Sequence record: OR061068
Reading direction: 5' to 3' (one strand)
DNA from: Escherichia phage CR01
Length of the DNA: 45,236 nucleotides
In this document: positions 1 to 45,236 of the stretch, in pieces
Layout of the letters: each line of letters starts with the position of its first letter
Position numbering within the stretch: the first letter of the stretch is position 1
Translations under genes and position numbers: made by a program
The notes under the pieces: model-generated
What the model was told of the DNA's origin: nothing
The model's input: only the letters and a program-made list of their open reading frames with translations
Database searches by the model: none

Positions 1-50
1 CCGTAAAGTTCTTTGATGGCGCGTACAACGTTTGCAGTAGCTTTGTTCAT
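1..50 (-). CDS. 5' part of a 72-aa early protein gene that wraps across the window ends (continues at 45071..45236); paralog of 32971..33189
   Basis: ATG at 50..48; reverse complement reads MNKATANVVRAIKELYG, matching the N-terminus MNKATASVVSAIKEVYG of the 32971 ORF; 50 nt here plus 166 nt at the right end = 72 codons exactly. Confidence 0.6.
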   Translation of the reverse strand, partial: MNKATANVVRAIKELY

Positions 51-61
51 TTCCAAATTCC

Positions 62-115
62 TTATCTCTCGTTTTGATGTAATGAATAGTACCCTATTAT
101 ATTGGGGTGCGCAAA
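62..115 (-). promoter_or_regulatory. conserved early promoter/operator cassette, copy driving the wrap-around gene
   Basis: Reverse complement TTTGCGCACCCCAATATAATAGGGTACTATTCATTACATCAAAACGAGAGATAAGGAATTT immediately precedes the ATG; contains TATAAT, palindrome AATAG-N4-CTATT and an AAGGA ribosome-binding site; near-identical copies at 9808-9870, 43428-43495 and 32905-32970. Confidence 0.5.
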
Positions 116-432: not shown

Positions 433-819
433 ATGAATCTTAAAGCAACTGTCGTAGCAGGAGCATGTTTCATCATCCTGGCTTACGCACACGGCATCTA
501 CCAGTACCGCGCTGGTTGGGGCGAAGGCCGCGCTAATCTCGTTTCGCAGCAACAGCAGAAAGCACAGGCTGAGTTAGCGAAGAAAACACAACGGCAGCAG
601 CAGGATGAATCAAAGGCAGCCGCCGCTGACAACGAAGGCAAGACGAAATCAGAGGTAATTACCCGTGAAGTCGTTAAGTACATTAAAACGCCTGGTCGCA
701 GCGTGTGCACTTTTGACGATGCTCGCGTCCTGCTCAAGTCCCGCGCCGTCGCCAACGCCAATTCCATCTCCGGATACGACGATGATGCAGCCACCGTGCA
801 AACTGGCCACGCCAAGTAG
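433..819 (+). CDS. i-spanin (Rz-like inner membrane spanin)
   Basis: 128 aa; N-terminal TM segment, Q/A/K-rich coiled-coil periplasmic region; contains an embedded out-of-frame lipoprotein ORF. Confidence 0.6.
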   Translation: MNLKATVVAGACFIILAYAHGIYQYRAGWGEGRANLVSQQQQKAQAELAKKTQRQQQDESKAAAADNEGKTKSEVITREVVKYIKTPGRSVCTFDDARVLLKSRAVANANSISGYDDDAATVQTGHAK

Positions 820-7222: not shown

Positions 7223-7225
7223 AAC

Positions 7226-9412: not shown

Positions 9413-9480
9413 CATGCTTACTTCCTCGTGTTTAGGATTTGTCCTATTTAACCACAGTGCATTCATTTAAATAAAGGCGA

Positions 9481-9807
9481 CTATTTACTTTCCGCGCCTA
9501 TCGCCCACCCGGTCATCACCATTTGCAGGCGGGTGGCTGTCAGTAGGCTGTAAAACGCGTCTCCGTTTTTCTCTACCGAACGTATTACAGAGTATGTTAC
9601 GGCTTGCGGAGGCAGGCCCGATTTACCAACCCCTACGGCAGCCTCACACTCGCGAACGGTAGAGTCCTTAAATGCCTTTACAATAGTAGGGTCGGCTTTA
9701 TCGAGCACACCAGAAGTCATAAGAACAGATTCACTAAATACCTGTTCGCACGGGGACCCAAAAGCAGCAAAAGACATAAACCCCAGAGCTAATACTAATT
9801 TACGCAT
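9481..9807 (-). CDS. small secreted/periplasmic protein (108 aa), first gene of the moron operon
   Basis: N-terminal signal peptide MRKLVLALGFMSFAAFG; gene sits immediately downstream of a conserved early promoter cassette. Confidence 0.5.
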   Translation of the reverse strand: MRKLVLALGFMSFAAFGSPCEQVFSESVLMTSGVLDKADPTIVKAFKDSTVRECEAAVGVGKSGLPPQAVTYSVIRSVEKNGDAFYSLLTATRLQMVMTGWAIGAESK

Positions 9808-9870
9808 AATTATTTCCTCAGTAAGTTACAGGTGAATAGTACCCTATTATATTGGGGTGCGCAAGTAGTG
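9808..9870 (-). promoter_or_regulatory. conserved early promoter/operator cassette driving the moron operon
   Basis: Reverse complement CTTGCGCACCCCAATATAATAGGGTACTATTCACC...GAGGAAATAATT-ATG; near-identical to the copies at 62-115 and 43428-43495. Confidence 0.5.
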
Positions 9871-10388: not shown

Positions 10389-10750
10389 AAGCGCTGTATG
10401 AATTTGCGCAATGGTGCTTTGTCGACCGCCACAAACGTAAGCAATTCGACGACATAGCGGCAGGCCACCAGGCGGCTTTGATTGCAATGGGCGTGATTAA
10501 AGAACCGCAGATGAAAGAAGCGACGGGGCCTGAATGCCCCGTTTCTCTTATCGACGTGTTCGAGAAATACCGCGCCATTAAATTCCTACAGCGCGAAACA
10601 GATGATACTATCGTCATAATCCCGCGCGATGCGCTCAAATGGCAAGATTTGGTAGCGTTTCGTGATGTCGCCGGTTACGGCATAAGTTTGTTCGAAGCCG
10701 AGGTTATCATGGGCTTAGACGGAATATTTGAGGGCAGAGAAGATGGCTGA
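10379..10750 (+). CDS. T-extension of the tail assembly chaperone (G-T product via -1 frameshift)
   Basis: The -1 frame is open from 10349 through 10750 with no start codon until 10478; overlaps the G stop; conserved G/GT arrangement before tape measure genes. Confidence 0.45.
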   Translation, partial: GKVKALYEFAQWCFVDRHKRKQFDDIAAGHQAALIAMGVIKEPQMKEATGPECPVSLIDVFEKYRAIKFLQRETDDTIVIIPRDALKWQDLVAFRDVAGYGISLFEAEVIMGLDGIFEGREDG

Positions 10751-13054: not shown

Positions 13055-14444
13055 TGAGCGACTTATATTTCCCACGTAGCCTTAAGCCTATTGTGTCGAA
13101 AGGCTACTCAATGACCAGACGCAACAACGTCTGGAGTGTCGATTTAGCCGGTGGCGGAGTGCGTCAAGGCCGTGACACGTATTATGATGTGTTCCCAATA
13201 AGCGTAACCCTGATTACATCCGCAATGGGGCGGCAGGCGTTTCTGTCGTTCCTCGAGAAAGTCGATGGTGGCGCGTCAAGTTTCTGGATGGCGCACGACT
13301 TCGGCATGGGTATTGAGGATTATCAAGTCACCATTACATCCACCGTCGCCGAGTCCACCGAAGACGGGATTAACTGGACAATTACTTTCACGGCAACCGC
13401 TGAGAAATCACCGTTCCAGGACCTTGAGAACCAGTGTCTGATTAACAATCTGCCAGATTTGTATGGCTGTTATGGTGATTGCCTGGGCAGTTTCCTGAAA
13501 ATATACGCGAACTATGAAACGACGTTCCCGCGTATCTGGAGTGACGAAGGCCCCGCCGGTTATCCGCCGATTAACCTTCTGGCGTCGACTCTTGATAGCC
13601 GCATTGTGTATGACGGGCCACAGGTTTACTACATCAACAGAAATGGCAATCTTGTGCAGTCCGCCGCCAATGAATGGCCTCTTACGTTCATTGATGGTGT
13701 TGCGGTTGGGCGAGTTCCTCCTGAAAATGCTGCAGAAAATATAATAATTGAGTCTTCAAACATAACTGATGCGTCGTGGGATAAGCAGAGGACAACAGTG
13801 AGCTATGACGGAAGCCTGGTTTTATCTTTCGCCGTTACCCCAGATGAAAACACGGGCGTCCACACCATTAATCAGACAGTTCATGCGCAAATTCTAGAAG
13901 GTGAAAAATACACATTCAGTGTTTTTTTAAGGCTAATGGGTATAATTTTGCCAGGCTCCGCGCGGCAAATCAGGATACTACGCACATCTCTTCCGCGATA
14001 GTAGACCTCACATCCGGGACTATTGTCGATGGCGAAGCATATTCCACAATAACATCTATAGGAGGCGGATGGTATCGAGTTACTGAAACTATAACGGCAC
14101 CACCCGGCGGGTTTGACGGCCTCAATCTGTCGATGTGGATTTACGAAACAGCAACAATATCATCGTTTCCAGGGGATGGGGTTAGTGGCATTCTCGCATC
14201 CACTCCACAAATAGAAAAAACAGAGTTCTCCACGTCCCCAATAGTAACTGAATCGTCATCAGTAACACGCCCATCCGCAGGTGCAAAAGTAGCAATGAAT
14301 GGCGCAATAAGCATCGACATAACCTATTCCGACGGCTCTGTGGTAAACGTTCAGGCTGTTGACGGTTATGCCGCCATCCCCCAAGCGGATTCTTCGTGGG
14401 GCAGTAAATACATCACTCGTATCGACTTTAATGTGGGCGGTTAA
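13054..14444 (+). CDS. minor tail protein (distal tail protein-like), frameshifted at T-run 13922-13928
   Basis: Track ORFs 13054..14001 and 14133..14444 join in one frame when one T is added to the T7 run. Confidence 0.4.
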
Positions 14445-19341: not shown

Positions 19342-19721
19342 ATGATGGCACGCGATTTATTACTAGCAACGACCAAGTTGGTATTGGATTTACGGAATCT
19401 GATATCGTTGACGGATGGACAGATCTCACTTTATCTGGGTTGCGAAATGGGCAGTTTGTAATTAGAAGGTCTATATCCGTATCTAGGACTTCGGGAGACG
19501 CTGGTGCGGCAGTTGTAACACTCCCTTTTAATATGAACACCAATTACACTGTTGCAGCTACGCTTGAAGGTACATTCAGTCAGCTGCAATCCATTTGCCC
19601 TGTGTTCAGTGTTACAGATAAAACATCATCTAGTTTTTCCTTGTGTGCGTCATCGGCAAAAGGCAACACTTCATGGTCGGCTATAACTGTTGAAGTTATT
19701 ATATATGGGTTAAAAGCTTAA
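19342..19721 (+). CDS. tailspike-associated hypothetical protein, apparently frameshifted near 19437-19446
   Basis: ATG 19342 opens a 39-codon frame ending at 19461; track ORF 19440..19721 continues in the -1 frame; the two join if one base is added to a short homopolymer. Confidence 0.3.
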
Positions 19722-19723
19722 AA

Positions 19724-19750
19724 CTAAGGCCCCAAACGGGGCCTTTTCTC
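19724..19750. terminator. bidirectional rho-independent terminator separating late (+) and replication (-) blocks
   Basis: AAGGCCCCAAACGGGGCCTTTTCTC hairpin with flanking A- and T-runs. Confidence 0.65.
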
Positions 19751-22501: not shown

Positions 22502-22531
22502 TTCTCAATTCCTTATATTGTTGGTGTAGGA

Positions 22532-22831
22532 CTAACTATAATAGCTCGCTATTAGGTCGTCAACCTGTTTAAACGAACCAACGACAAAAACATTAGCACC
22601 GCGTTTACACATCCGCTCATGCTCCCGTAACTGGTGCGGGTCTGGCTTCGTGTTTTCGTCTTTCTTCACCTCGACGAACCAGATGATGCCACCAGGGAGA
22701 ATTGCCAGCAGGTCGGGGGCGCCGGAACGTCCTTCGTAGGAGAGCTTACGAACGAGGCCCCCAATGGCCTCGAATCGGTCTTTGCGTATTTCTGAATCTT
22801 GCCTTCCGGGGTCACAGCAAAGGCTCCGCAT
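22532..22831 (-). CDS. VRR-NUC domain nuclease
   Basis: About 99 aa from ATG 22831; motif RSGAPDLLAILPGGIIWFVEVKK (PD...E-x-K). Confidence 0.5.
   Translation of the reverse strand: MRSLCCDPGRQDSEIRKDRFEAIGGLVRKLSYEGRSGAPDLLAILPGGIIWFVEVKKDENTKPDPHQLREHERMCKRGANVFVVGSFKQVDDLIASYYS
22534..22562 (-). promoter_or_regulatory. sigma70-like promoter with operator palindrome
   Basis: Reverse complement TTGACG-ACCTAATAGCGAGCTAT-TATAGT; contains AATAG-N5-CTATT. Confidence 0.45.
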
Positions 22832-23209: not shown

Positions 23210-25409
23210 TTACTTAGCATAACGTTTTAACTCCTGACCTTCCGCTACAAGAGGGAACCCCTCGGCCCACTCCGGCAACGCACACATTAATTTTTCCAGT
23301 TCAGCCACCGTGTACTCAGGTGTGTCCGGAGTTTCACACACTAATTCATCGTGTACCGAAAGCACGATGGGGTACCCGCCGCCCTCAACATTAATCATCG
23401 CATATGCGAGCAAATCACGGCACAGCGCCTGAACAATGTTTTCGCAGGCTTTGCCGCCGTGGGTGTACAGGGTAGTCCATTGGCGGGTTAACTGGTTTTC
23501 ACCCTGATACTTGATTCGCACATTCGTGTTTACCCGTCCGTCTTCGTCTGTTTCCTTTGTCACACTAACGCCGATTCCCGGATACGAGAGGATGCGACCC
23601 GACGGCAACTCCATACACAACCACCAACCAGGAACCTTCCTGCCGGATGAATCAAATTCTACAGTACGCCATATGCGGATAGCACGCTCGCCATTCTTGC
23701 GCAGATGCGCCCCGCCCAAAATTCACGACCAGGATTACGAACAGCAGCTAAAATTCCGTCTTTAAGGTCGCGCCAGAAAGCTACTGTTTCAGGGTGGGAC
23801 TCCCGCCACATACGCTTGATAGCGTCGCAGGTACGCCACACTTTCTTATCAAGAATATACGATGGTCGGTCATCCTTTTCACCGGGATGTGGCGGTCGCT
23901 TTGCTTCCTGAATACGCGCCCACTCATACCCACGTGCGGTAGCAGCCCAGATGTGGTCGGGGAAAGTCCCGTCCATTGTTTTTGCCATCTCAATAAGGTC
24001 AAGACCTAAGTTTTTAGCAAACGTAACGAACGCTCCGACGCCCCCTCATAGCCGAGGCCAAGCTCGCAAGCCTTGCCTATCTGTCTGATTTCCTTGAAGT
24101 TTTTCTTAATATCATCTGGGTCCATGCCAAACATCTTACCCGCGGTTACACAGTAAATATCCAACCCGGCGCGGAACGTATCAAGCGCGGTTTCCTCCCC
24201 AGCCAGCCACGCAAGCCCGCGACCTTCAACGTTAGAGTAGTCAGCAACAACAAACTTATGCCCTTCTTCCGGTATGATGCAGCTACGCACAGTAGATGCC
24301 GTCAGTTTTGCCACATCGAAACGGCGATGCGCTCGGCCCTTAAGTAACGCTGAAATGCCTTTATCCAGTTCATCATCGTGATAGTACCCGCGTGCGAGAT
24401 TCTGCGGCTGGAAGCCTTTACCCGCCCATCGCAGAGTACGTTTTGCCCCGCCATACTGTAAACAACCGCGACGGCGGTCGTCCGACGAGCGGCCTAACAG
24501 CAGCGGGTTATATTTCGTTGATGCGGTGGACGCGGCCCCGAGGCGCATTTCGATAATCGTGCGGGCGTCGTCAGGTAAATCATCGTCCGCCAGCAGGTCA
24601 TGAAGCGTTGACTTCTGCGCGTTGTGGATGCGGTGCGCGGGGGCGAGTTCACGCAGAATCGGCAGAAAGTCTTTACCGGTAAGCGAGCCGCCGTATTTGC
24701 GTTGGGCTTCTTCCTGTAACTGTGCCTTGTGCTTCTCCACGGCTTCAATCGCGGCTTCCGCCAGTGCAACGTCAACCTTAAACCCACGGTCATTGATTAA
24801 CTGGTCAAGTTCCAGTACACGGTCCTCGAACTCGGAGTTACCCCAACGCGGCAGCTTATGAAAGACTTCACGCATCGCGGTGATGTCGCTCACGGCGTAC
24901 TTGATGAACAGCGCCCACTCGTCCGGGTGTGTTTCGGCGGTGTAACGGCGGATTTTGTAGTTCTTCGGTGTAGGTTTGGAGAAACGCTGAATCAGCGCCT
25001 TGCCGCGTTTATCTTTCGCGTTGTCCGCGGATACACACAACACTTCGCACAATGCATCGAGCGACCCCGGCAGCGCGTGGCGAAACGCCCAAATCATCGT
25101 ATCAATGGTGTTGCTTACCGGAATATCAAAGCCCCAGCAGTGCTTCATGATGAGCCTGTCGAACATTGAGCCGTTGTGCCACACCATCTTAATGCGGCTG
25201 TTCGGCTTAACCAGACGGCGTAGTGCGCGGTGCAAATCACCCGGCATGTCGCTGCTGTCGGTGCAATCCCATACCTGCACAGGCTCGTCGTCAAAAGCAT
25301 AGGTACAGATTAGCACTTCGGTAGTTGGGTGTTCGGCATAAGCGTAGGAGCCGACTTTCTTTAAATCGGCTTCGGAGAATGTTTCAAAGTCCAGGTATAA
25401 GTAGCTCAT
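23210..25409 (-). CDS. family A DNA polymerase with 3'-5' exonuclease domain, split by two homopolymer frameshifts
   Basis: N-terminal exonuclease motif LYLDFETFS; pol motif B-like RQIGKACELGLGYEG; motif C SVHDELV; frame changes at C5 run 24041-24045 and C4 run 23710-23713 are each repaired by adding one base. Confidence 0.8.
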
Positions 25410-26095: not shown

Positions 26096-26149
26096 CTTAA
26101 TTTCTCGCTTTTCAGTTTCGTTTACTCCGGGAGCTGCCCGGCCAGTGAT

Positions 26150-26182
26150 TAGAAATATAATAGCTAACTATTCAGGTGTCAA
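26150..26182 (-). promoter_or_regulatory. sigma70-like promoter with operator palindrome upstream of the SSB-like gene
   Basis: Reverse complement TTGACA-CCTGAATAGTTAGCTAT-TATATT; contains AATAG-N4-CTATT. Confidence 0.5.
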
Positions 26183-26460
26183 CCCTTCCAGCCAGTTATT
26201 TTCTCAACTATCTCAATATACTTGTTTGGCCATTTCATGTTGTTTATGAAACGTAACGCCTGTGTCTTCCACGATTTGTCATTCAGGATGGCTTCGATGT
26301 CGCGTGTTCGCATTAGGCATATCGTAAGGCACGCTATGATAAATGTTGGTATCATTAGCGGCGACATAAGAACCCAGAAAATAATACACGCCACAAAACC
26401 GCCAATTACTCTGAACATTTTACGAATCATTCCAAATCCTCCTCTGTTACCTGATTCCAC
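26179..26460 (-). CDS. small membrane protein (93 aa)
   Basis: Two hydrophobic segments (VIGGFVACIIFWVLMSPLMIPTFIIACLTICL). Confidence 0.35.
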   Translation of the reverse strand: MESGNRGGFGMIRKMFRVIGGFVACIIFWVLMSPLMIPTFIIACLTICLMRTRDIEAILNDKSWKTQALRFINNMKWPNKYIEIVEKITGWKG

Positions 26461-27533
26461 TCAGGACGTTTGTCGTCCGCCGTTGCGACGCATGGCGCGC
26501 CTGGTTTACGGGTAATGAAGTCTTTCAGTTCTTCTTCCGGTATTACTTTAACCGCTTCGGTCGGCGTCATGAGCACTTCTTTGGTCAGCTTGCCGCCGTA
26601 TTTCTCGGCCACTTTCTCTGCGTCTTTCCACGCGCGATTACCCGGCCGACCCTCAACCAGCTTGTACCCCGGTACTTTCTTGCCAGAATGCAACGCGGCG
26701 GCCATAGCTTTCTCGACCTTGTCGATGTGCTGGCGCAACAACGGCAACTTCTCATACTCAGCCACGAGTTGCTCCGGTGTAAGTTCCAGTGCGAAATCGT
26801 CCTCCAGTTCTTCCGCCAGCGCCGCGTTAACCGTCTTTGTACGCGCTGCGCACTGTTCTGAGAACCGACACCACTGACAGCCGTCGACAGACGGCCTGAA
26901 GTCCGACGCTTTCAGGTTCTTCTTGCCGCGGGAATACGCATCAAGCGCTAACAGTGCCCGTTTCTGCGCAAACTTAGCGAACAGTTCCAGACCTTCAACC
27001 GAGATGTCCCACTCCGACGCACCGCCAGCGTACGGCTGGAAGATGACCAGACGGACAACTGTGATGTTATAACGTCTCTTGAGTCGGCGATAAACACCGA
27101 GAGCGTAAAGCATAAGCTGCTTGTTTTCTTTCGCTTCGACACGATGCCGTCCAGTTTTCAGGTCGCCGATAATGAGCATGTGATCGTCGGTGTTCGCCAG
27201 CTCCTGAACGGCAACAAGGTCAGCGGTTCCGAACGTCTCGACACCTTCATACCCAGGATGCAATACCTCAGTAAGATTGACTCGCATTTCCAGCTTGGCG
27301 TAAGTCGCTACGTCGATAATCGCTTTGCAGTAGTCTGTGTACTTGCGCACCTGCTCAATCATATCCGCCGTAATCAGTACCGCGCCTTTCATCGGGCTGA
27401 TTAGCGCCTTAATCTGGCCTTTACCTTCATCAAGCACGTAAGCACCGACTTCGCGCTCTAACGGCAGCGCAGTACCGCGTATATAGGCGTTGAGATGTAC
27501 CTCAGCTATTGTATGCATAGCTGTGCCTAACAC
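26427..27533 (-). CDS. PD-(D/E)xK nuclease, Cas4/RecB-like
   Basis: 368 aa; GTADLVAV, IIGDLKTG and QLMLYAL motifs plus a Cys cluster CQWCRFSEQC. Confidence 0.5.
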   Translation of the reverse strand: MLGTAMHTIAEVHLNAYIRGTALPLEREVGAYVLDEGKGQIKALISPMKGAVLITADMIEQVRKYTDYCKAIIDVATYAKLEMRVNLTEVLHPGYEGVETFGTADLVAVQELANTDDHMLIIGDLKTGRHRVEAKENKQLMLYALGVYRRLKRRYNITVVRLVIFQPYAGGASEWDISVEGLELFAKFAQKRALLALDAYSRGKKNLKASDFRPSVDGCQWCRFSEQCAARTKTVNAALAEELEDDFALELTPEQLVAEYEKLPLLRQHIDKVEKAMAAALHSGKKVPGYKLVEGRPGNRAWKDAEKVAEKYGGKLTKEVLMTPTEAVKVIPEEELKDFITRKPGAPCVATADDKRPEWNQVTEEDLE

Positions 27534-27663
27534 GGCAGCTTTGCCGGACGTGTTAGGAATATCTTTTCACAGGCCAGTGATGCACTGCACGCCAGCCACT
27601 TTTTAGCACCTGACGGCGATAGTAATGCGTGCACATCGTTATTGCCGCCGCGTTCTTTTAGAA

Positions 27664-28026
27664 TCATCGTAAACTCTCCAAATACAAGTTTAATGCCTGT
27701 AACTGTTCTTCTGTGGGAATGAAAGAATCATCGCGGTGTAAGTCGCTTAACTGTTGCAACATTCCTGCGAACTTACGTCTTGCGTCGACAGCGACCATGT
27801 GATGCTTTTCACTTTTGTATATTAATGTTTTCGGGTAATCCTCAAGCCTGCCAGACGATTTATTCACTCGGAGCGCCCGAGCTTCATGCGCAATGTGTAT
27901 GTACTTTTTACCGTTTTGTAGCACAGTAGCTACACCGCTGTTCTTTCTGCGGTCGCCGACGGTATAAACTTTGTCGCCGCTGCGCAAATTAAGCCACCAT
28001 TTATCAGTCATGCTCTGTTCTCCCAC
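27664..28026 (-). CDS. hypothetical protein (120 aa)
   Basis: Track ORF in co-directional operon. Confidence 0.3.
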   Translation of the reverse strand: MGEQSMTDKWWLNLRSGDKVYTVGDRRKNSGVATVLQNGKKYIHIAHEARALRVNKSSGRLEDYPKTLIYKSEKHHMVAVDARRKFAGMLQQLSDLHRDDSFIPTEEQLQALNLYLESLR

Positions 28027-29412: not shown

Positions 29413-29525
29413 CTCTCGTTTTGTATGGGCTAACTATAATAGCGAACTATTCACTTGTCAATGGGCTTTTCTAAAATAATTAATATGGTACTATTCACAT
29501 ATCAACTGACTAAGGAGTAATTGAC
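29413..29525. promoter_or_regulatory. divergent promoter region with two operator palindromes
   Basis: Minus direction TTGACA-N17-TATAGT around AATAG-TTCG-CTATT; plus direction a second TACTATTCA copy and ribosome-binding site AAGGAG before ATG 29526. Confidence 0.6.
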
Positions 29526-29757: not shown

Positions 29758-32014
29758 CTACTCCAAATCCTCCTCTGTCACCACCAGCATTTCATTCGGT
29801 TCGTATATTGTCTTCGGCCTTAATCTGTCCCCCATCTTTTCGGGTATCCGGTATGTGCCGGGGACAACTTCACCGTTAACATCACATCCGAGCATCAACT
29901 CCCCGTCTTTCAGCATCTTCTCGAGATGATGGTTGGTGATGGCGTGGTCCCCCGAGTTCGCCACTATCTGCCGTTGGGTAAAACCTCGTCCGGTGTCGTC
30001 GGACTGTTGCAGGTCTTCCAGCGCGGCGAGTATTGATTCCTTACGCCCTTCATCCTTCCCGCGTTTTACAGCATTATTTACGTTTTCTTTACCTTCTTTA
30101 GTTAACCCTTCTTCCCGCTCCTTCTCCTCGTCAGTTTTGAACGGCTCGAAGCCCCACGGCATCAGCACAAGCGCCTTGTGCGGCTCAGGCAGATCGAGGT
30201 TTACGATTGTGCCGTATTCCTCTGTGCTACCGAGGAACTCAACCGCACGGTATTCTTTCGGAGGCGGGGCTTCACGGAACTGTACCGACTCCAGAACCAT
30301 GCCAACCGTTTTCTGTTGAGGCCCATGCTTAAATTTCGAGTGGTATACGTTTATCTGGCGGCCGGTAGCGCGCTCAATTGTCAGCTCCACATCAACACCG
30401 GCATACAGCGCCCCGCTACCACGGGCTTTCTTTCCACCCTTAGGCGTATGGTGGACGACACCCACAGCGGCTTTAGTTGCGTCGCGTACTTTTTAAGGAT
30501 GGCGATAACTTTACCCATGCCAATTGCAGTTGATGAACTGTTCTCGTCGAACTTGTCAATTGTCAGGGCCAGCGTCTGGTTGAGGGTATCGAACGCGACC
30601 ATACCAATAGGCTCGTCCCCTGCAGCTTCACGCATCCTGCGGATTAGCGCGGGGATTTTTTATCACCATGCGCGGCGAGCACCTCACCCATATCAATGAC
30701 ATGTACGTAATCTTTACCTTCCTCGCCGTATTTAGCCGCGAGCGCGTCAATACGTGTGCGTGTAGCTGCGCCTCCCTCACCGTCGATATAGAAATGGTGG
30801 CAACGCTGGGTATCCGCCCCGGCAAACCGGTATCCGGCGGCGCTCAGGTACATCATCCCCAGCGTATAGAACGATTTGTACGTGCCGGATTCCCCAACAA
30901 TATCCCAGATACAATCTGACGGCATGTACCCCTCAACGACGAAATCAGCCTTTACCGGTTCCGGTAGCTCGTCCTCTTCTGAGTCATCATCGTCTTCCAG
31001 GTCGTCGAGGCTGCATGAAACAGATTCACGCGCACCCCATCCGATAGCCCCGGCGACTTCACTGAACGGCAGCCCAGTCGCATCACACGCGTATTTCCAC
31101 ACCTCTTTCGGCGACATGCCTTCGGTTGCCGTGATGTCGGTGTCGTGAATCATCGTTACGTTCGGCGCTTCATATCCCTCGCGCGGGAAGCATAGCAGGA
31201 AGTCGTCCGGACGCGGCGTCGGGTCGCTGTAGTTCTCTGCGTGTTCCGGTGTAGCTGGCATTTTTAGTCCGCGCGGCGTCATGATGCCACCGTACTCGAA
31301 CGCCAGTGCCTCAAACGCATCAGTAAACGCAGTGCGCAGTTCTTCCGGTATCTGGTAGTCAGATGCGCTGCTGATGTCAACGGCTGGGACGCCTTCCAGT
31401 AACTCATCAGGGTCAATCAGGTCGTTGCGGCGCGACCAGATAACAGTAGAGCCAACTGGCGGCAGGTACATCGGCTGCGACAGAGTGAACCCGCTGCGGT
31501 CCGCGCCCATGCCTTTGAAGAAGTGCTCCAGTAATCCATGGCGAACACGGATGATGTCGCCACCTTCAACCGGGCGGGCCAGCGGCATGACGACGCGAAA
31601 GCGCGGCGACTCGTCGGTATGTGATGCCGTGGTGTAGAGACACATCGCCTGGCGGCTGCGCTTAACCAGGCGCACCGCTTCCTGATACTCTTCCGGCGTT
31701 GTGCTGTCGAAGTCCAGGTACGCCAGCGACGATTTGCTTACAGACGCATCACAGCGATAGAAGAAGCCTTTGCGCGCCTGCTTAAAGTCACCGGTTTCCG
31801 GGTCTTTTACGGTGCTGTGCGTAGAGTCGCACGCGGCAGTGATATACCCCGGCGCGGTCTTAGGGCTAATCCCGTCACGAACGGCATCGAGCGGCTGGAT
31901 TAACTCTTTCAGGTCGTCCAGTGTTGCCGTGTGGGTAGTTCTGACGTTTATATCCTTTTTCTCTGCCCGCGCGTTGCGACGTGACCACGAGTAGGATAAA
32001 ATTACATCGGACAT
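29758..32014 (-). CDS. DNA primase-helicase (primase-like N-domain plus RecA/DnaB-like C-domain), split by two homopolymer frameshifts
   Basis: N-domain LAYLDFDS (DxD-type); P-loop-like GESGTYKS; C-region VVHHTPKGGKKARGSGALYAG resembles the DnaB H4 motif; frame changes at T6 run 30656-30661 and T5 run 30490-30494 repaired by adding one base. Confidence 0.6.
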
Positions 32015-32509: not shown

Positions 32510-32970
32510 TACATTGCGAATAATGGGAAATCAAACATAATCGCACCTATTGACATTAAGAAAATCTTCGTTTAAGGTGCTTCTATATCTTAGTTACTTT
32601 GATTCCTGTTCACCTTGTAAAACCCGCCGAAAACGAGCGCCCAACGCGAAGTGTTAGGCGGCAGTTTACTGAACATTCGAATTATCGTAACTTTCCTTCC
32701 TAAGTATCTCCGGTTGCCCTGGGCAAGCTCTATTCCCATCGGCGGAATATATCTTAAGTATCTGATTTTCTTAAAGTGCCGTAGATTCGCAACCGTAAAA
32801 ATGTAACGATTATTGGGCAGGCTTAGGGCCTGCCCTTTAGTTACCAAGTAATAAGAATAAAGGCACAACCCTACCTGAAGAATCACAACGGCAACGTAAC
32901 TATTCTCTTGCACACCCCAACATAATAGGTTACTATTCACTTATCGAAACGAGACATAAGGAATTTAGCA
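32510..32970. promoter_or_regulatory. 460-bp non-coding control region with divergent promoters and a terminator-like hairpin (candidate origin / ncRNA locus)
   Basis: No convincing ORF; TTGACA at 32552 with -10-like element; hairpin GGGCAGGC-TTAG-GGCCTGCCC plus T-tract at ~32816-32842; conserved cassette at 32905-32970. Confidence 0.45.
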
Positions 32971-33189
32971 ATGAACAAAGCGACTGCAAGCGTAGTTTCC
33001 GCAATCAAAGAAGTTTACGGCATCGATATTTCAGAGCGCGTAATTATCGGGAACAAACGCAGCTTCTTTACGTTCGACACCGACGGAATGGATGAAAATG
33101 ATTTTAACAACGTACAACGTTTCGCCAACGGTAAAGGGCTTCGTAACGAGCCTGCTGGTTACAAGAAATTCGCTATCTACTTTAAATAA
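32971..33189 (+). CDS. 72-aa early protein, paralog of the wrap-around gene
   Basis: MNKATASVVSAIKEVYGIDISERVIIGNKRSFFTFDTDGMDENDFNNVQRFANGKGLRNEPAGYKKFAIYFK; same length and ~80% identical to the wrap-around product; same promoter-leader cassette. Confidence 0.6.
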   Translation: MNKATASVVSAIKEVYGIDISERVIIGNKRSFFTFDTDGMDENDFNNVQRFANGKGLRNEPAGYKKFAIYFK

Positions 33190-33198
33190 GACAAAGGG

Positions 33199-38717: not shown

Positions 38718-38886
38718 GCCAGTAGTTATAGATGGCGTCTTGTGGAAACCCTACTCGGTTAACCATATCGACGCCGACGGGAAGAAGTTCAGCTTCTACA
38801 TTTTTGCAATTAGCCGTGAGCACGCTGCGTGTGTAGTAGACGATATACGAGAAACGGCGTGGCTTGGCGATGAGATAGTGGGGTGA
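38695..38886 (+). CDS. hypothetical protein (63 aa)
   Basis: Track ORF. Confidence 0.3.
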   Translation: MMGMKAPEPVVIDGVLWKPYSVNHIDADGKKFSFYIFAISREHAACVVDDIRETAWLGDEIVG

Positions 38887-39137
38887 GAGCATGAGTCTTG
38901 AGGTTGTTATAAGTCTGGTTGGTCTTAGTTACTTCATTGGGCTATTGGTCGGTTTTCTGTGGGGTAGATACTAATGTTCAGCGACATCAACGCAGCAATC
39001 GAAGAAGCAATCTGGCGTCGCTACAACGGCGAGCAGCAACGGCACTTCTGCCTGGTGCAACGGGGTAACATGATTGCCGTAGTGCAGGACCGCGATAACA
39101 AATATCCGAATGCGATGTGGACAACGAGGAATTTCTT

Positions 39138-39840: not shown

Positions 39841-40386
39841 ATGAAGCTGAAACTTAAGCAGCCATCGCCAGAGGTGGTGCAAGCGGCACATGAAGAAGCT
39901 GTTAGCGCAAACCGTCGTCGTAAACGACCGCGCGGCAAACAGAGCCTTTACCAGTCATCCCGTAATTCCGCCGCGTTGTGGGACCCGGACTATTGCGACG
40001 CGTTAATCGAGTTCTTCGACCGAAACTCATGGGAACTTGTGCCTACGTCTAAGGGTGACGAACGCCCGCTGATTCAGGATAAACCGCCGTCACTGGCCCG
40101 CTTCGCCTTGCACATCGGCGTCACTATCCCGATTATTAAGCTGTGGCTGCGTGAGATTCCCGCATTTGCCGAAGCCTATGAAACAGCGCAGGCACTTGAA
40201 GAGGCATACTTCACCGAGACAGGGGCCGCCGGTATTTCTGCTACGTTTGCCGCCGCTAAACTGGGTCTCAGCAAAGAGAAACCGGTTGAATCCACCGAAG
40301 AAACAGCACCGACTGAGATTATTTTCAGTGTCGCGGAGCCTGTAGGTAAAATCGTAACAACGAATATGGGCGAGGTAGAGGAATGA
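39841..40386 (+). CDS. terminase small subunit
   Basis: 181 aa ORF immediately upstream of and overlapping the large terminase gene; basic N-terminus. Confidence 0.5.
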   Translation: MKLKLKQPSPEVVQAAHEEAVSANRRRKRPRGKQSLYQSSRNSAALWDPDYCDALIEFFDRNSWELVPTSKGDERPLIQDKPPSLARFALHIGVTIPIIKLWLREIPAFAEAYETAQALEEAYFTETGAAGISATFAAAKLGLSKEKPVESTEETAPTEIIFSVAEPVGKIVTTNMGEVEE

Positions 40387-41631
40387 GTATTCAGCTATCC
40401 GCGCCACAGGCACTGTTCCTGAATTGCGATAACAAGTACAAAGCCTATGTCGGCGGCTTCGGTAGCGGCAAGACATTCGTCGGATGTCTCGACCTGCTTA
40501 CGTTTATGCTCAAGCACCCCGGTACGCGCCTGGGCTACTTCGGCCCGACATACCCGGCCATACGTGACATCTTCTACCCGACATTCGAGGAAGCGGCTAA
40601 CCTGCTTGGCCTTGATGTGCTGGTTAAATCCGGCGACAAAGAAGTCGTTGTAACTCGCGGTAAGACTGTGCTCGGGACCGTTATCTGCCGTTCTATGGAT
40701 AACCCCGGCTCGATAGTCGGCTTCAAAATCGCGGCTGCGGTCGTGGATGAGCTGGACGTATTGAGCCGTGAGAAAGCCGAGCTGGCGTGGAACAAAATCG
40801 TAGCCCGCATGCGTCTGGTTATCCCGGGGTAATTAACCACATCTCCGTCACCACGACTCCGGAAGGGTTCAAGTTCGTTTACGCCAAGTTCAAGGAGAAC
40901 CCGACGCCGAGTTACTCAATGGTGCAGGCGTCCACTCACGAGAACGCCAGATTCCTGCCGCCGGATTACATTAGCTCGCTGACTGAGACTTACCCGGCGC
41001 AACTGATTAACGCGTATCTGAACGGTGAGTTTGTCAACCTGACATCCGGAAGCGTGTATTACGCATACGACCGACGCAAGCACCGCAGCAAAGAGACAAT
41101 TCAACCGGGCGACACGCTGTACATCGGGCAGGACTTCAACGTTACGAAGAACGCCAGCGCCGTGTATGTGCAGCGTAAAGATGGATGGCACGCGGTTGCA
41201 GAACTGAAGGGCCTGTTCGATACGCCGGACACCGTGCGCGTAATTACCGAGAAGTGGAAGTCACAAGGCCACCGCATCGTCGTTTACCCCGACGCTAGCG
41301 GCAAGAACCGTAAGACAAACTCGGCGTCAATCTCTGATATTGCATTACTCCAGCAGGCGGGTTTCGATGTTCGCGCTAAATCAGCCAACCCCCGGTTAAA
41401 GACCGCGTTTTAGCCGTGAACACCGCGCTGGAAAAAGGTAAGCTGTGGGTTAATGACCACTTATGTCCTGAGATAGCCAAGACGCTGGAACAGCAGGCAT
41501 ACGACGATAACGGAGAGCCGGCTAAAGACGGCGTCATTGACCATATGGCTGATGCTCTCGGCTATCCTGTAGTTTATGAGATGCCGGTGGTTAAACCAGT
41601 AATCAACATCCCGGTGACTTTCGCACTTTAA
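40383..41631 (+). CDS. terminase large subunit, split by two homopolymer frameshifts
   Basis: Walker A VGGFGSGKTF and Walker B AAVVDELD; three successive frames (40383..40832, 40787..41413, 41416..41631) join when one base is added at G-run ~40826-40829 and C-run ~41388-41392. Confidence 0.75.
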
Positions 41632-41643: not shown

Positions 41644-43112
41644 ATGTTAACTATGAACGGTCAGAATCAGGGTGTTAAGACAAAACACCGGGAATGGCTG
41701 CATCACTTCGATAAATGGCAGAAGGTGCGCCACGCACTGGAGGGCGACCTTATCCGCTATCTGCGCAACGTCGGGAAGAACGAGCCGGACCCGACCTACG
41801 CGGCACAGCGCCAGGAAGAATACGAGAACGGGGCTATCTGCTATAACTTCACCAAGCGCACCCTGGCGGGGATGGTTGGGTCGGTGATGCGCAAAGACCC
41901 CGAACAGATTATTCCGCCTGAGCTTGAGTACCTGTTACGTAACGCCGACGGTTCTGGTGTCGGGCTGTGGCAGCACGCGCAGGATACTTTGATGGAGATT
42001 GACTCGGTGGGCCGTGGCGGGTTGCTGGTGGACGCCCCGGAGACAGCCGCGGCAACGGCGGCAGAACAGAACGCGGGGCTATTAAACCCGGTCATTGCAT
42101 TCTATACCGCAGAGAACATCATAAACTGGCGACTGACCCGCGTTGGTTCAGTTAACCGTGTGACGATGGTCGTGCTGCGTGAGGTGTGGGAATACTCGGA
42201 ACCGGGCGCAGAGTTCGAAACAAAGTTCGGTGAGCAATACCGCGTTCTCGATTTGATTGATGGTCGCTACCGCCAGCGCATTTACCGCTTCGATGCCGAA
42301 GGTGGTGCGCAGGGTGAAGTAATCGAAATATTCCCTGAACTTGGTGAACAGTTGCGCGGCAAAATCCCGTTCACGTTCATTGGGGCGAGCAACAACGACG
42401 CCACTATAGACGATGCACCTTTGCTGCCGTTGGCTGAGCTCAATATCGGACATTTCCGCAACAGCGCGGACAATGAGGAGTCCAGCTTCGTTGTAGGGCA
42501 GCCCACCCTGTTCATTGCCCCAGGTGAGAACATGAGCATGGAACAGTGGAAAGAGGCCAACCCTCACGGCGTCCGCACGGGGTCGCGTTCAGGCCACAAC
42601 ATTGGTTACGGCGGCAATGCGTTTCTGGTTCAGGCAGGGAGAACAACCTCGCCAAACAGAACATGCTGGATAAAGAGAATCAGGCGATTCAGATTGGTGC
42701 GCAGCTTATCACCCCGACGCAGCAAATCACCGCTGAATCGGCCCGTCTGCAACGTGGTGCTGATACTTCAGTTATGGCAACAATCGCACGTAACGTAAGC
42801 ATGGCGTACACTGATGCGCTGCGCTGGGTGGCTGCGATGCTTGGGCTGCGTGAAGGCACAGAGATTGAGTTCAAGCTGAATATGGAGTTCTTCCTGCAAC
42901 CGATGACCGCTCAGGACCGTGCTCAGTGGATGGCGGATATTAACGCGGGTCTGTTACCGGCTACCGCTTATTATGCTGCGTTGCGCAAGGCAGGTGTAAC
43001 TGACTGGACGGACGAGGACATTCAGAACGCTATTGAGGACGCACCTCTGCCGTTGGGTGCTGTTACTCAGGTGGCTGGAGAGATTCCGCAGTCGGCGCAA
43101 CAACAGGAGTAA
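41644..43112 (+). CDS. portal protein, frameshifted at G-run ~42637-42639
   Basis: Track ORFs 41644..42798 and 42546..43112 join with one added G; position between TerL and the head morphogenesis gene. Confidence 0.6.
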
Positions 43113-43116
43113 ATAG

Positions 43117-43140
43117 AAAGGCCCCTTAAGGGGCCTTATC
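43117..43140. terminator. bidirectional rho-independent terminator
   Basis: AAAGGCCCCTTAAGGGGCCTT followed by T-rich tract; between convergent portal (+) and 43146..43427 (-). Confidence 0.6.
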
Positions 43141-43145
43141 TTTCT

Positions 43146-43427
43146 TTATACAAATATGAATCCATTGCTGGAAGAGGTGTATCGGGTGGTGCCGTTTTTC
43201 GTTTCGGGCCAACAGATATATGAGCGACCATGATACTCTACCCACCAAAGTTCTACATCGGCATCCCCATTAGGTCGCGTCAACCACCCGTGGTGCAGCC
43301 AATACTTGCGCCCTATTTTAAATATGCCTTCTTCGCATGAAGGCCTGCAACAGGCGACGCACTCTACTTGAACACCATCAACATGCACACATGTCATATG
43401 TAAATTACTGTTTGAATATTTAGCCAT
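43146..43427 (-). CDS. Cys-rich small protein (93 aa) driven by a conserved early promoter cassette
   Basis: MAKYSNSNLHMTCVHVDGVQVECVACCRPSCEEG...; lone minus-strand gene inside the late region. Confidence 0.5.
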   Translation of the reverse strand: MAKYSNSNLHMTCVHVDGVQVECVACCRPSCEEGIFKIGRKYWLHHGWLTRPNGDADVELWWVEYHGRSYICWPETKNGTTRYTSSSNGFIFV

Positions 43428-43495
43428 TTCTAAATTCCTTATCTCTCGTTTTGATGTAATGAATAGTACCCTATTATATTGGTGTCTGCAAATAT
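43428..43495 (-). promoter_or_regulatory. conserved early promoter/operator cassette
   Basis: Reverse complement TTTGCAGACACCAATATAATAGGGTACTATTCATTACATCAAAACGAGAGATAAGGAATTTAGAA-ATG. Confidence 0.5.
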
Positions 43496-43535
43496 TATTT
43501 TTATGCGTTACACTGTCTATACTACAGGAGGGCTT

Positions 43536-44578
43536 ATGAGCTTACTTACATCCCTAATCAGCCACCAGATATGGCTACAACGCGCCGCATCCGGTGAAGT
43601 GAAAGACCTCGCACCGTTTATTAAGGAGATGCGGGACGAAATCAAACGGCAGGTGCTGTTATTCGGCGACGACGGGCGAAGCACTGCGCGACTGAATAAA
43701 CTGTTACGCGACCTCGAAGAAGCACTGACAGGGCTTACAGGTGACTGGCAAACAAAGCTGACAGAAGACCTTAAGGAACTGGCGGCGTATGAGGCGGAGT
43801 GGAACGTAAAGGCACTGACCGCCAACGTAGACGCGGAGTTTGTTACACCTACCGCCGAACAGGTGTGGGCTGCTGCCGAGTTTCAACCGCTCTCATTGAG
43901 CGACAAGCCTGTTGATTTCTCTAAGCTGATGACCGGCTGGGGCGAAACAGAAGTCGAGCGCCTGGTAACCGGCGTTAAGATGGGCTTTGTACAAGGCCAA
44001 ACCACACGGCAGATTGTTAAGAATGTCGTAGGCGCTGGCGGACTGGCCGACGTCTCTGAGCGTAACGCCGCTACCGTCATCCGCACCGCGCTGTCCCACG
44101 TGTCTAACGAAGCCCGTAACGAGACGTACCGCCAGAACGAAGACATCATCGAGAAGTACGAGTGGGTGTCGACGCTAGACAGCCGTACCAGTACGATTTG
44201 CAGAGCCAGAGACGGAATGACGTGGGAAATCGGTAAAGGGCCAATGCCCCCGCCCATCCGAACTGCCGGTCGTGCACGGCTCCGGTAATCAGTTCAGAGT
44301 TCGATTTCCTGGATAAAGGTGCAAAGCGAGCGGCTAAAGGTGCGGACGGCGGTACTCAGGTAAGCGCAGACACCACCTATTACGAGTTCCTGAAGCAACA
44401 ACCGTCGTGGTTTATCGATGAAGCGCTCGGCCCGGTGCGAGGCAAGATTTTCCGTAACAGCGGTATATCACCGGAAGAGTTTCGCGTAATATCTGTAGAT
44501 GGTTTCGGGAATCCGCTGACGCTTAAGCAGATGGCGGAACTCGATAAACGTGTTGCTGATTATCTGAAAGGGGAATAA
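43536..44578 (+). CDS. head morphogenesis protein (phage Mu F-like), frameshifted at C-run ~44247-44255
   Basis: ATG 43536 with ribosome-binding site AGGAGGG; adding one C gives MPPPHPNCRSC, the PPxHxNCRC signature of Mu F / SPP1 gp7 family proteins, and extends the frame to 44578. Confidence 0.6.
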
Positions 44579-45039
44579 TGATGGGCTTTTTCAAAGTAAC
44601 TGATGTACCGTCACGTCGCGTAGTCCAGTTTGCTCGTGTGTCAGGCTCCGGTGAGAACGTGGTGTCTATTGGGGATGAAAGTGTACTGGGTACGCCGGTA
44701 GATGATATGCCGTTTGCAGATAAAACCGGTATTGCGTTACCCGCGGCGGGCATGCTTTATGAGATTCCGTATCTGGCGGACGCTGGCGATGTGTATTTCT
44801 CTGTGCAACCGAAAGACGCTGAACTGGTTGACGGCAGCGCGACTATCACTGTCGAAGTTAAGGCAGGTAAAGCGCCGTATACGCTGACCTGGTACAAAGA
44901 CGGTAAGGAAGTAGTAAACGCCCCGGAAGAGGCTTTGTCTCTGACGGTTAATGCAGTTGGTGAATACTTCGTTAAAGTTACTGACGCCGATGGGGTAGAG
45001 GCGGTAAGCAAAGCGGCAAAGGTTACTAAGCCAGAATGA
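44578..45039 (+). CDS. Ig-like domain protein (second; candidate virion decoration/accessory protein)
   Basis: 153 aa; TLTWYKDGKEV and GEYFVKVTDADG motifs typical of Ig-like domains. Confidence 0.45.
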   Translation: MMGFFKVTDVPSRRVVQFARVSGSGENVVSIGDESVLGTPVDDMPFADKTGIALPAAGMLYEIPYLADAGDVYFSVQPKDAELVDGSATITVEVKAGKAPYTLTWYKDGKEVVNAPEEALSLTVNAVGEYFVKVTDADGVEAVSKAAKVTKPE

Positions 45040-45040: not shown

Positions 45041-45070
45041 AAAAGGCCCCATTACGGGGCCTTAGTTTTA
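45041..45070. terminator. bidirectional rho-independent terminator
   Basis: AAAAGGCCCCATTACGGGGCCTTAGTTTTATTT between convergent genes. Confidence 0.6.
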
Positions 45071-45236
45071 TTTGAAGAATATCGCGAATTTCTTGTAACC
45101 CGCTGGCTCGTTGCGCAGACCGTGTTCGTTAGCAAAACGTTGTACATTGTTAAAGTCATTTTCACCCATTCCGTCCGTATCGAACGTAAAGAAATTACGT
45201 TTGTTCCCGATAAGCACACGGCTTGTGATATCAATG
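45068..45236 (-). CDS. 3' part of the wrap-around 72-aa early protein gene (start at 50..1)
   Basis: Reverse complement reads IDITSRVLIGNKRNFFTFDTDGMGENDFNNVQRFANEHGLRNEPAGYKKFAIFFK-stop, collinear with residues 18-72 of the 32971..33189 product. Confidence 0.6.
   Translation of the reverse strand, partial: IDITSRVLIGNKRNFFTFDTDGMGENDFNNVQRFANEHGLRNEPAGYKKFAIFFK

What the first reader, a model, noticed from the sequence alone, without database searches (positions are those of the whole stretch)
45068..45236. The window closes on itself exactly: a gene wraps across the ends
The minus-strand ORF entering at the right end and the one leaving at the left end (1..50) join in frame with no gap or overlap (166 + 50 nt = 72 codons), and the joined product is collinear with its paralog at 32971. 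The sequence is therefore one exact genome unit, circular or circularly permuted with the breakpoint placed inside a gene. No direct terminal repeat or cos-like end was seen, which fits headful packaging.
Basis: seen in the sequence. Interest (0 to 1): 0.4.

Follow-up and report, generated by a model that had tools for sequence, protein, structure and literature searches.

The report
Complete phage genome cut inside a gene
The window is one complete copy of an E. coli siphophage (Kagunavirus) genome whose assembly was cut open at an arbitrary point inside a small accessory gene; this is an ordinary result for a phage that packages DNA by the headful.

Summary
On the minus strand, 45068..45236 plus 1..50 form a 72-codon ORF plus stop. 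Its product is 85% identical, without gaps, to the in-window paralog at 32971..33189. The paralog's DNA is split exactly at the window ends. Two independent short-read metagenome contigs run through the junction with 80/80 identical bases, and several relatives are contiguous there. The window is collinear around the whole circle with complete Kagunavirus genomes and has no terminal or large internal repeat, so it is one genome unit cut open arbitrarily.

Headful packaging cannot be read from an assembly, but relatives support it. The window's large terminase is the phage Jersey/Schulenberg allele, and Schulenberg, Sciku, Shashou, Snoke and a Jerseyvirus were reported as headful.

- The assembly has at least 14 homopolymer frameshifts in essential genes.
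- The wrapped gene sits in a payload-swapping hotspot and is absent there from the closest relative, M01.
- Its family includes T-even injected internal head proteins, but the Kagunavirus copies lack the capsid-targeting leader.

Verdict: real, explained, low interest.

The parts
45068..45236 (-). 3' part of the wrapped gene: third base of codon 17 through codon 72, plus stop TAA (45070..45068)
   Evidence: Aligns without gaps to the paralog.
1..50 (-). 5' part of the wrapped gene: ATG at 50..48, codons 1-16 and the first two bases of codon 17
   Evidence: Metagenome contigs L005 and L006 are identical across the 45236|1 junction.
58..63 (-). Shine-Dalgarno-like AAGGAA, 7 nt upstream of the ATG
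   Evidence: Read from the sequence. Conserved in the paralog and in BCH953P1.
84..114 (-). 31-nt promoter-like element TTGCGCACCCCAATATAATAGGGTACTATTC (TTGCGC, 17 nt, TACTAT) upstream of the wrapped gene
   Evidence: Four copies in the window, 0 expected by chance. Each lies upstream of a small gene. Promoter function is inferred, and the sigma-70 scan did not call it.
45043..45063 (.). Two-way terminator-like hairpin shared by the wrapped gene (-) and the convergent Hoc-like head decoration gene (+)
   Evidence: Called on both strands. Conserved in M01 and BCH953P1.
32971..33189 (+). Paralog of the wrapped gene, the first gene of the rightward early-region cluster
   Evidence: 85% aa identity. 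82% nt identity over 291 nt, including 64 nt upstream of the ATG. 96% identical to Bas70_0057.
32908..32938 (+). Copy of the 31-nt promoter-like element upstream of the paralog
   Evidence: 3 mismatches.
44578..45039 (+). Hoc-like Ig-domain head decoration gene: the conserved left flank of the junction locus
   Evidence: 95% identical to Bas70_0005. Weak Ig_3 / BiPBP_C Pfam hits.
433..819 (+). Rz-like spanin gene: the conserved right flank of the junction locus
   Evidence: 92% identical to the Bas70 Rz-like spanin. The same neighbour is present in L005-L009 and EC3-1.
39841..40386 (+). Small terminase gene. In P22/SPP1-type phages pac lies in or next to this gene, so pac is expected here, about 5 kb from the window breakpoint (inference).
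   Evidence: 98% identical to the L007 TerS. PHROG 3064 'terminase' matches the corresponding L005 gene, not the window ORF itself. The pac position is an inference.
40383..41631 (+). Large terminase gene, broken into three frames by two homopolymer frameshifts
   Evidence: Terminase_6N / 6C. Fragments 100/97/88% identical to the intact 416-aa TerL of L007, which is the Jersey/Schulenburg allele.

Best explanation
The window is one complete, unit-length genome of a virulent E. coli siphophage of the genus Kagunavirus (Guernseyvirinae). It came out of an assembler as a closed circle and was written out from an arbitrary position that happens to fall in codon 17 of a 72-codon accessory gene.

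The circle is a map, not the virion molecule. These phages most likely replicate to concatemers. Their terminase makes a first cut near a pac site (expected in or near the small terminase gene at 39841..40386) and then fills heads with slightly more than one genome length. Virion DNAs are therefore linear, terminally redundant and circularly permuted. Reads from such a population overlap at every position, so no fixed end survives assembly.

The wrapped gene has its own promoter-like element, ribosome-binding site and two-way terminator. It lies in the variable slot between the Hoc-like decoration gene and the Rz spanin gene. It is a second, diverged copy of an early-region gene whose relatives include capsid-targeted internal head proteins of T-even phages.

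What is shown: the exact closure, the collinearity, the homologies and the cassette anatomy. What is inferred: the headful mechanism, the pac position, promoter activity and any anti-defence role.
For: Closure:
- The ORF joins in frame.
- Gap-free 85% identity to the paralog, E = 7e-46.
- Repeat arms abut exactly at the window ends.
- Contigs L005 and L006 are 80/80 identical across the junction, with 95.4% and 98.4% identity over 2.7 and 2.2 kb. L007 and L009 (about 91%) and BCH953P1 (92.8%) are also contiguous there.

One unit:
- The window is collinear with M01 and with the circular Bas70 record all the way round.
- Length 45,236 bp lies within the 41-46 kb of relatives.
- No repeat longer than 79 nt apart from the paralog, and no terminal repeat.

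Headful packaging:
- TerL is Terminase_6N/6C.
- It is the allele of Schulenburg and Jersey.
- PhageTerm reports headful packaging for Schulenberg, Sciku, Shashou and Snoke (PMC6763661, PMC6753286, PMC6776780, PMC6776784).
- No termini were found for fBC-Eco01, whose terminase region is about 91% identical to the window's (PMC9825357).
- Jerseyvirus K47 was supported by restriction pattern and PFGE (PMC10783031).
- The K1G/K1H TerL clade lies next to headful packagers (PMC5582158).

Cassette:
- Promoter-like element present in four copies.
- Hairpin called on both strands.
- Other payloads sit between the same flanks in M01, Bas70 and EC3-1.
Against: No reads or virion DNA are available, so the physical ends are untested. 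An assembly of a phage with short direct terminal repeats or cos ends can also close into a circle.

The assembly is error-rich, with at least 14 homopolymer frameshifts. Its exactness elsewhere cannot be assumed, although the junction itself is verified.

For fBC-Eco01, PhageTerm gave no call rather than a positive headful call.

The sigma-70 scan did not call the proposed promoter.
Confidence: 0.85

Rival explanations
1. The virion DNA has fixed ends, either short direct terminal repeats or cohesive ends. The assembler collapsed or joined them, so the circle hides defined termini located elsewhere in the sequence.
For: Assemblies cannot distinguish these cases. For the related fBC-Eco01, PhageTerm found no termini rather than positively calling headful packaging (PMC9825357). 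Nothing in the window itself marks a pac site.
Against: A terminase 97-98% identical to the window's allele belongs to Schulenberg, which was called headful (PMC6763661). Four further Guernseyvirinae were called headful or pac (PMC6753286, PMC6776780, PMC6776784, PMC10783031), one of them with restriction and PFGE support. The K1G/K1H TerL groups with headful packagers, not with cos or DTR clades (PMC5582158).
Confidence: 0.08
2. The junction is an assembly artefact: a chimeric or mis-trimmed join that only by luck restores an ORF.
For: The assembly is low in base quality, with at least 14 homopolymer frameshifts, so errors are common in it.
Against: Five independent metagenome contigs and the BCH953P1 records carry the same gene uninterrupted between the same neighbours. 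L005 and L006 are base-for-base identical across the junction. The paralog alignment has no indel there. The flanking synteny, Hoc-like gene then slot then Rz, is shared with Bas70, M01 and EC3-1.
Confidence: 0.01
3. The sequence is a truly circular replicon, a plasmid-like or episomal phage, rather than a circular map of linear permuted DNA.
For: The sequence closes exactly. Relatives are sometimes deposited as 'circular' (Bas70).
Against: The gene content is that of a virulent tailed phage with terminase, portal, capsid and tail genes. No integrase, partition or plasmid-replication gene appears in the Bas70 annotation, with which the window is collinear. The family is described as virulent siphoviruses with linear dsDNA (PMC9825357, PMC11990801). 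Tailed-phage virions package linear DNA (established knowledge).
Confidence: 0.03

Closest known systems
Escherichia phage M01 (OR061069.1) and other Kagunavirus genomes (Bas70-76, UTEC10, fBC-Eco01, BCH953P1)
   Same: About 98% nt identity to M01 over almost the whole length, with full collinearity. 81-97% nt identity in the aligned blocks to Bas70, covering about 72% of the window, in the same gene order. BCH953P1 carries the same gene in the same slot.
   Different: M01 has a different 133-nt payload where the window has the 246-nt wrapped gene. Among the Kagunavirus records listed, each carries the gene at a single locus, and only BCH953P1 carries it in this slot. The window carries it at both loci. 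The record start points differ because all of them are arbitrary or set at terS.
pac-type headful packaging (the P22 / SPP1 / P1 paradigm), as reported for Guernseyvirinae phages Schulenberg, Sciku, Shashou, Snoke and Kenya-K47
   Same: Circular genetic map, no fixed ends in the assembly, and a Terminase_6N/6C large terminase 97-98% identical to the terminase of a phage called headful (PMC6763661).
   Different: Nothing was measured for this isolate. The pac site, the degree of terminal redundancy and the processivity are unknown. TerL has no detectable sequence match to solved terminase structures.
T-even internal head proteins (Ip family; T4 Ip1-3 are injected inhibitors of GmrSD type IV restriction enzymes)
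   Same: The wrapped gene and its paralog match PHROG 7673 'internal head protein' (E about 1e-26). They are 58% identical to proteins encoded next to another internal-protein gene and downstream of the tail-fibre chaperone gene in Mosigvirus SF, the ipI-type locus.
   Different: The T-even proteins start with a capsid-targeting leader (MKTFNEFISE / MKFNEFLTE). The Kagunavirus proteins begin at the mature domain (profile positions 20-90). They are not homologous to T4 Ip1 itself as far as I recall its sequence (from memory, not tested). Their target is unknown.
Morons / accessory-gene hotspots of tailed phages
   Same: A small gene with its own promoter-like element and terminator, on the opposite strand to the flanking late genes. 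Its content varies between near-identical genomes.
   Different: Classical morons were defined in temperate lambdoid phages and are expressed from the prophage. This phage is virulent, and the element shares its promoter and leader with early-region genes.

Membership tests
Headful (pac) packaging with a circularly permuted, terminally redundant genome | The genome map closes into a circle of one unit length | tested here: met
Headful (pac) packaging with a circularly permuted, terminally redundant genome | No fixed terminal repeat or cohesive end in the sequence | tested here: inconclusive
   No terminal or long direct repeat was found. However, collapsed repeats and cos sites are invisible in an assembly.
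Headful (pac) packaging with a circularly permuted, terminally redundant genome | The large terminase belongs to a lineage of demonstrated or predicted headful packagers | tested here: met
   TerL fragments are 100/97/88% identical to the L007 TerL. That TerL is 98.3% identical to Schulenburg's and 97.8% to Jersey's. Schulenberg was called headful by PhageTerm (PMC6763661). No phylogeny with reference terminases was built here.
Headful (pac) packaging with a circularly permuted, terminally redundant genome | Virion DNA longer than one genome unit, permuted ends, submolar pac fragment, read-start pattern | not testable with these tools
   Needs the reads or virion DNA of this isolate.
Genus Kagunavirus (Guernseyvirinae) | High nucleotide identity and collinearity with genus members across the genome | tested here: met
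   98% to M01. About 89-94% over 72-81% of the first 25 kb to UTEC10, Bas70-76, Golestan and K1ind2/3. Collinear with Bas70.
T-even internal head proteins (Ip) | Sequence homology to a family of internal head proteins | tested here: met
   PHROG 7673, E = 9.7e-27 and 3.4e-27. 58% identity to T-even homologues.
T-even internal head proteins (Ip) | N-terminal capsid-targeting sequence (MKxxxEFxxE) removed by the prohead protease | tested here: not met
   The Kagunavirus proteins start at MNKAT..., which aligns to residue 16 of the phage SF protein and to profile position 20. The CTS is present in the SF protein and in P0025. So this is a homologue of the mature domain, and it should not be filed as an internal head protein.
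T-even internal head proteins (Ip) | Packaged in the capsid and injected with the DNA | not testable with these tools
   Needs virion proteomics.
Moron-like accessory gene cassette | Own promoter and terminator, and presence or absence varying between close relatives | tested here: met
   Terminator hairpin. Repeated promoter-like element, with function inferred only. Payload differs in M01, Bas70 and EC3-1 between conserved flanks.

The most novel reading that the evidence does not exclude
The wrapped gene and its paralog may be leaderless, intracellularly expressed versions of a T-even injected internal-protein family. They could act as early anti-defence factors in a siphophage with unmodified DNA. 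On this reading, the window's unusual two-copy state (two locus-specific clades about 15% apart in protein sequence) reflects diversification against variants of a host defence system. The copies would be exchanged through a slot bounded by a conserved promoter/leader and a terminator.
Probability: 0.25. Interest if true: 0.45.

Novelty: already known. Interest (0 to 1): 0.12.

Why it matters
The value is mostly practical.

- The sequence is complete and can safely be re-circularised and re-opened at the small terminase gene.
- A linear gene caller will lose the wrapped gene.
- The assembly needs polishing before annotation, because its terminase, portal, capsid, tape measure, polymerase and primase-helicase genes are broken by homopolymer errors.

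Biologically, the closure adds nothing new to what is known about Guernseyvirinae packaging.

The one modestly interesting lead is the gene itself. It belongs to a family shared between T-even injected internal proteins and leaderless siphophage genes, and here it is present twice. It would be a cheap candidate for anti-defence screens.

Tried and rejected
- **Pfam** on the wrapped protein and its paralog: no family at E <= 1.
- **PDB sequence search:** only weak EF-hand-like hits around FDTDGMGENDF (best E = 0.09). The loop lacks the canonical residues at positions 5 and 12, so this was rejected as chance.
- **AlphaFold2 model:** confident (pLDDT 92.5; helix-strand-strand-helix-strand-strand). 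Foldseek against the PDB gave no match at E <= 0.001. The top hits are cap subdomains of HAD phosphatases and designed proteins, which is a generic fold, so no function was assigned.
- **Exhaustive representative search:** only 12 hits. The long multi-repeat proteins among them (P0026, P0029-P0031) match only short stretches of 27-36 residues and were not pursued.
- **TerL against PDB sequences:** no terminase hit, so packaging class could not be assigned that way.
- **Rfam on the whole window:** nothing.
- **Sigma-70 scan:** did not call the repeated element, nor the TTGACT box at 181 that I first took for a promoter.
- **Recent in-genome duplication:** rejected. The two copies differ by 18% in DNA. 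The copy at the junction is 98-100% identical to metagenome contigs carrying it at the same locus. The homologues fall into two groups by sequence signature, and for the members whose locus I checked (P0001, P0002, BCH953P1 versus Bas70, M01) signature and locus agree.
- **Literature search** for 'Jerseyvirinae' plus 'circularly permuted': found nothing.

Full report
**What the window is.** Megablast of the first 25 kb finds 521 phage records, almost all Guernseyvirinae siphophages of Escherichia and Salmonella. The best is Escherichia phage M01 at 98.0% over the full query. Kagunavirus members follow (UTEC10, Bas70-76, Golestan, K1ind2/3) at about 89-94%. The window is collinear with M01, and with the circular record of Bas70, all the way round the circle. 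Its length of 45,236 bp lies within the 41-46 kb range of relatives.

**Checking the observation.** Joining the last bases to the first gives, on the minus strand, a 72-codon ORF plus stop.
- The ATG is at 50..48 and the stop TAA at 45070..45068.
- Codon 17 (Gly) spans the junction.
- The product is 85% identical to the ORF at 32971..33189, with no gaps and E = 7e-46.
- DNA similarity (82%) extends from 8 nt past the stop to 64 nt upstream of the ATG.

The repeat finder reports the similarity as two inverted-repeat arms, 32943-33020 paired with 1-78 and 33021-33197 paired with 45060-45236. The arms are adjacent in the paralog and are split precisely by the window ends. The join therefore neither loses nor duplicates a base. 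No prefix equals a suffix, and the terminal k-mers are unique.

**Independent confirmation.** The protein database holds a 99%-identical protein, P0001, and a 92%-identical one, P0002.
- Both are encoded on short-read metagenome contigs from several ENA samples. In each contig the gene lies uninterrupted between the 153-aa Hoc-like gene and the 128-aa Rz gene.
- L006 aligns to the re-circularised window at 98.4% over 2.2 kb, and L005 at 95.4% over 2.7 kb.
- Both are 80/80 identical across the junction. The nearest indels lie hundreds of bases away.
- Kagunavirus BCH953P1 is also contiguous there, at 92.8%.

The artefact hypothesis is refuted.

**Topology and packaging.** A closed assembly shows that the reads overlap everywhere. 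External evidence supports the conclusion.
- The terminase genes lie at 39841..41631, and TerL matches Terminase_6N/6C.
- After allowing for two frameshifts, the window's TerL is 100/97/88% identical in its three pieces to the intact 416-aa TerL of contig L007.
- That protein is 98.3% identical to the TerL of phage Schulenburg and 97.8% to that of phage Jersey.
- PhageTerm predicted headful packaging for Schulenberg (PMC6763661), and likewise for Sciku, Shashou and Snoke (PMC6753286, PMC6776780, PMC6776784).
- For fBC-Eco01, whose terminase region is about 91% identical to the window's, no termini were found (PMC9825357).
- For Jerseyvirus K47, PhageTerm, a circular-type restriction pattern and a broad PFGE band all pointed to pac-type headful packaging (PMC10783031).
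- The K1G/K1H terminases cluster next to headful packagers (PMC5582158).

I therefore accept headful packaging at roughly 0.8-0.85 confidence and treat the circle as a map. The breakpoint inside a gene, about 5 kb from terS, is simply where the assembler opened the circle.

**Assembly quality.** I translated 35 Bas70 proteins against the window. Many essential genes are split between reading frames:
- TerL (three frames)
- portal
- head morphogenesis protein
- major capsid protein
- head-tail adaptor
- tape measure protein
- the 466-aa protein downstream of the tape measure gene
- DNA polymerase (three frames)
- two exonucleases
- primase-helicase

Every switch lies at a homopolymer run such as GGGG, CCCCC, AAAAA or TTTTTT. 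The metagenome relatives have intact genes: TerL of 416 or 423 aa, portal of 493 or 495 aa, and Mu_F-type head morphogenesis protein of 347 aa. The window lacks single bases relative to them, for example at 44251, 428 and 976.

This is the signature of an unpolished long-read or flow-chemistry assembly. The closest record, M01, is labelled 'partial genome' and is fragmented into 104 features in the same way. The exactness of the junction is thus a verified local fact and does not vouch for the rest of the assembly.

**What the wrapped gene is.**
- It is a self-contained cassette. An AAGGAA box lies at 58..63. A 31-nt element (TTGCGC, 17 nt, TACTAT) lies at 84..114. A hairpin at 45043..45063 is called as a terminator on both strands and is shared with the convergent Hoc-like gene.
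- The 31-nt element occurs four times in the window, with 0 expected by chance. The other copies lie upstream of the paralog, of the 108-aa gene at 9481..9807 and of the 93-aa gene at 43146..43427. The last of these also shares a 79-nt leader with the wrapped gene.
- The slot between the Hoc-like gene and Rz is a hotspot. M01, 98% identical on both sides, carries 133 nt of unrelated sequence between the same promoter-like element and terminator. Bas70 has an acidic 67-aa protein there and EC3-1 a 70-aa membrane protein. Other relatives carry methylase, sliding-clamp or endonuclease genes.
- Among the Kagunavirus records listed, each carries the gene at a single locus, usually the early one. 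Across all 170 matching records there are only 172 places. The window carries the gene at both loci.
- The homologues fall into two groups by sequence signature. For the members whose locus I checked (P0001, P0002 and BCH953P1 in the slot; Bas70 and M01 in the early region), signature and locus agree. The second copy was therefore acquired by recombination and did not arise by recent duplication.

**Family of the protein.**
- Pfam has nothing.
- PHROG 7673 'internal head protein' matches at about 1e-26, but only over profile positions 20-90 of 90.
- T-even homologues are 58% identical. In Mosigvirus SF the gene lies next to another internal-protein gene, downstream of the tail-fibre chaperone gene.
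- The T-even proteins begin with MKTFNEFISE (phage SF) or MKFNEFLTE (P0025), the capsid-targeting leader type. The Kagunavirus proteins start at the mature domain.
- They are therefore homologues of the mature domain only and fail a defining feature of an internal head protein.
- T4 Ip1-3 are injected inhibitors of GmrSD type IV restriction enzymes (PMC12373910). An anti-defence role for the leaderless copies, one of which is the first gene of the rightward early-region cluster, is a reasonable but untested inference.
- A confident AlphaFold2 model (pLDDT 92.5) shows a small two-layer alpha/beta fold with no significant PDB match.
- The family is small, with 12 representatives at 50% clustering.

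**Verdict.** The phenomenon is a headful-type phage genome assembled as a circle and opened arbitrarily. That is routine, so the interest is low and the kind is already known. The useful by-products are three: the warning about homopolymer errors, the need to re-origin the record so that the gene is not lost, and the small lead on a leaderless relative of T-even internal proteins present in two copies.

Noticed in passing
window 40383-41631, 41644-43112, 43479-44577, 1714-2762, 3531-4039, 8286-9466, 10728-13054, 13054-14444, 23210-25409, 26427-27667, 29758-32014: At least 14 frameshifts split essential genes: TerL, portal, head morphogenesis, major capsid, adaptor, exonucleases, tape measure, the 466-aa protein downstream of the tape measure gene, DNA polymerase and primase-helicase. 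Each lies at a homopolymer run. Intact versions exist in metagenome relatives. The assembly is unpolished, as is the closest record M01.
   Followed up: yes
window 84-114 (-), 9834-9864 (-), 32908-32938 (+), 43461-43491 (-): A 31-nt promoter-like element, TTGCGCACCCCAATATAATAGGGTACTATTC, occurs four times (0 expected by chance), each upstream of a small gene. Its conserved spacer contains an imperfect CCC-N9-GGG palindrome that could be an operator. The wrapped gene and the gene at 43146-43427 also share a 79-nt leader.
   Followed up: partly
window 45070-45236 + 1-79; L002 6122-6254; L004 4908-5111; L011 693-905: The slot between the Hoc-like head decoration gene and Rz is a payload-swapping hotspot with conserved promoter and terminator flanks. 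Unrelated small proteins occupy it in M01, Bas70 and EC3-1. Other relatives have methylase, sliding-clamp or endonuclease VII genes there.
   Followed up: partly
window 40383-41631; L005 4500-5771; L007 9847-11097: Guernseyvirinae carry two large-terminase alleles only about 54% identical in protein. The window has the Jersey/Schulenburg allele. Its portal is nevertheless 95% identical to that of Bas70, whose TerL matches the window's at only 35-67% depending on the segment. This implies a recombination boundary between TerL and the portal gene.
   Followed up: partly
L003 2456-2719 (Mosigvirus SF); P0025: T-even homologues of the wrapped gene carry an N-terminal MKTFNEFISE / MKFNEFLTE capsid-targeting leader that the Kagunavirus copies lack. 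The same domain therefore exists in an injected form and a leaderless form.
   Followed up: partly
window 115-432 (+): An intergenic stretch of about 320 nt between the cassette and Rz, most of which (about 65-335) is conserved at 92-96% across many Kagunavirus and Jerseyvirus records. A strong terminator-like hairpin lies at 390-409. There is no Rfam hit, and the RNA fold z-score is only -2.08. Bas70 annotates a 36-aa ORF here.
   Followed up: partly
window 22529-22563, 26148-26182, 29427-29461: A second repeated element whose reverse complement reads TTGAC(G/A)..N17..TATTAT/TATAGT. The copies are spaced along the minus-strand replication gene block and are probably promoters of another class.
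   Followed up: no
window 7220-7250, 19719-19749, 43111-43141, 45042-45070: A family of near-identical GGCCCC...GGGGCC terminator hairpins occurs at module boundaries. Repeated flanks of this kind could mediate cassette exchange.
   Followed up: no
window 38877-38958 versus L010 ends: The M01 record ('partial genome') lacks about 82 nt that the window has between M01's last and first bases. M01 is therefore not closed, whereas the window is.
   Followed up: partly
L001 (OZ035754.1), around locus 1578-1797: The BCH953P1 copy of the wrapped gene has a 2-nt insertion in a T-run that breaks the frame. Its sister record OZ035805.1 matches in one piece. This is either a sequencing error or a pseudogene.
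   Followed up: no
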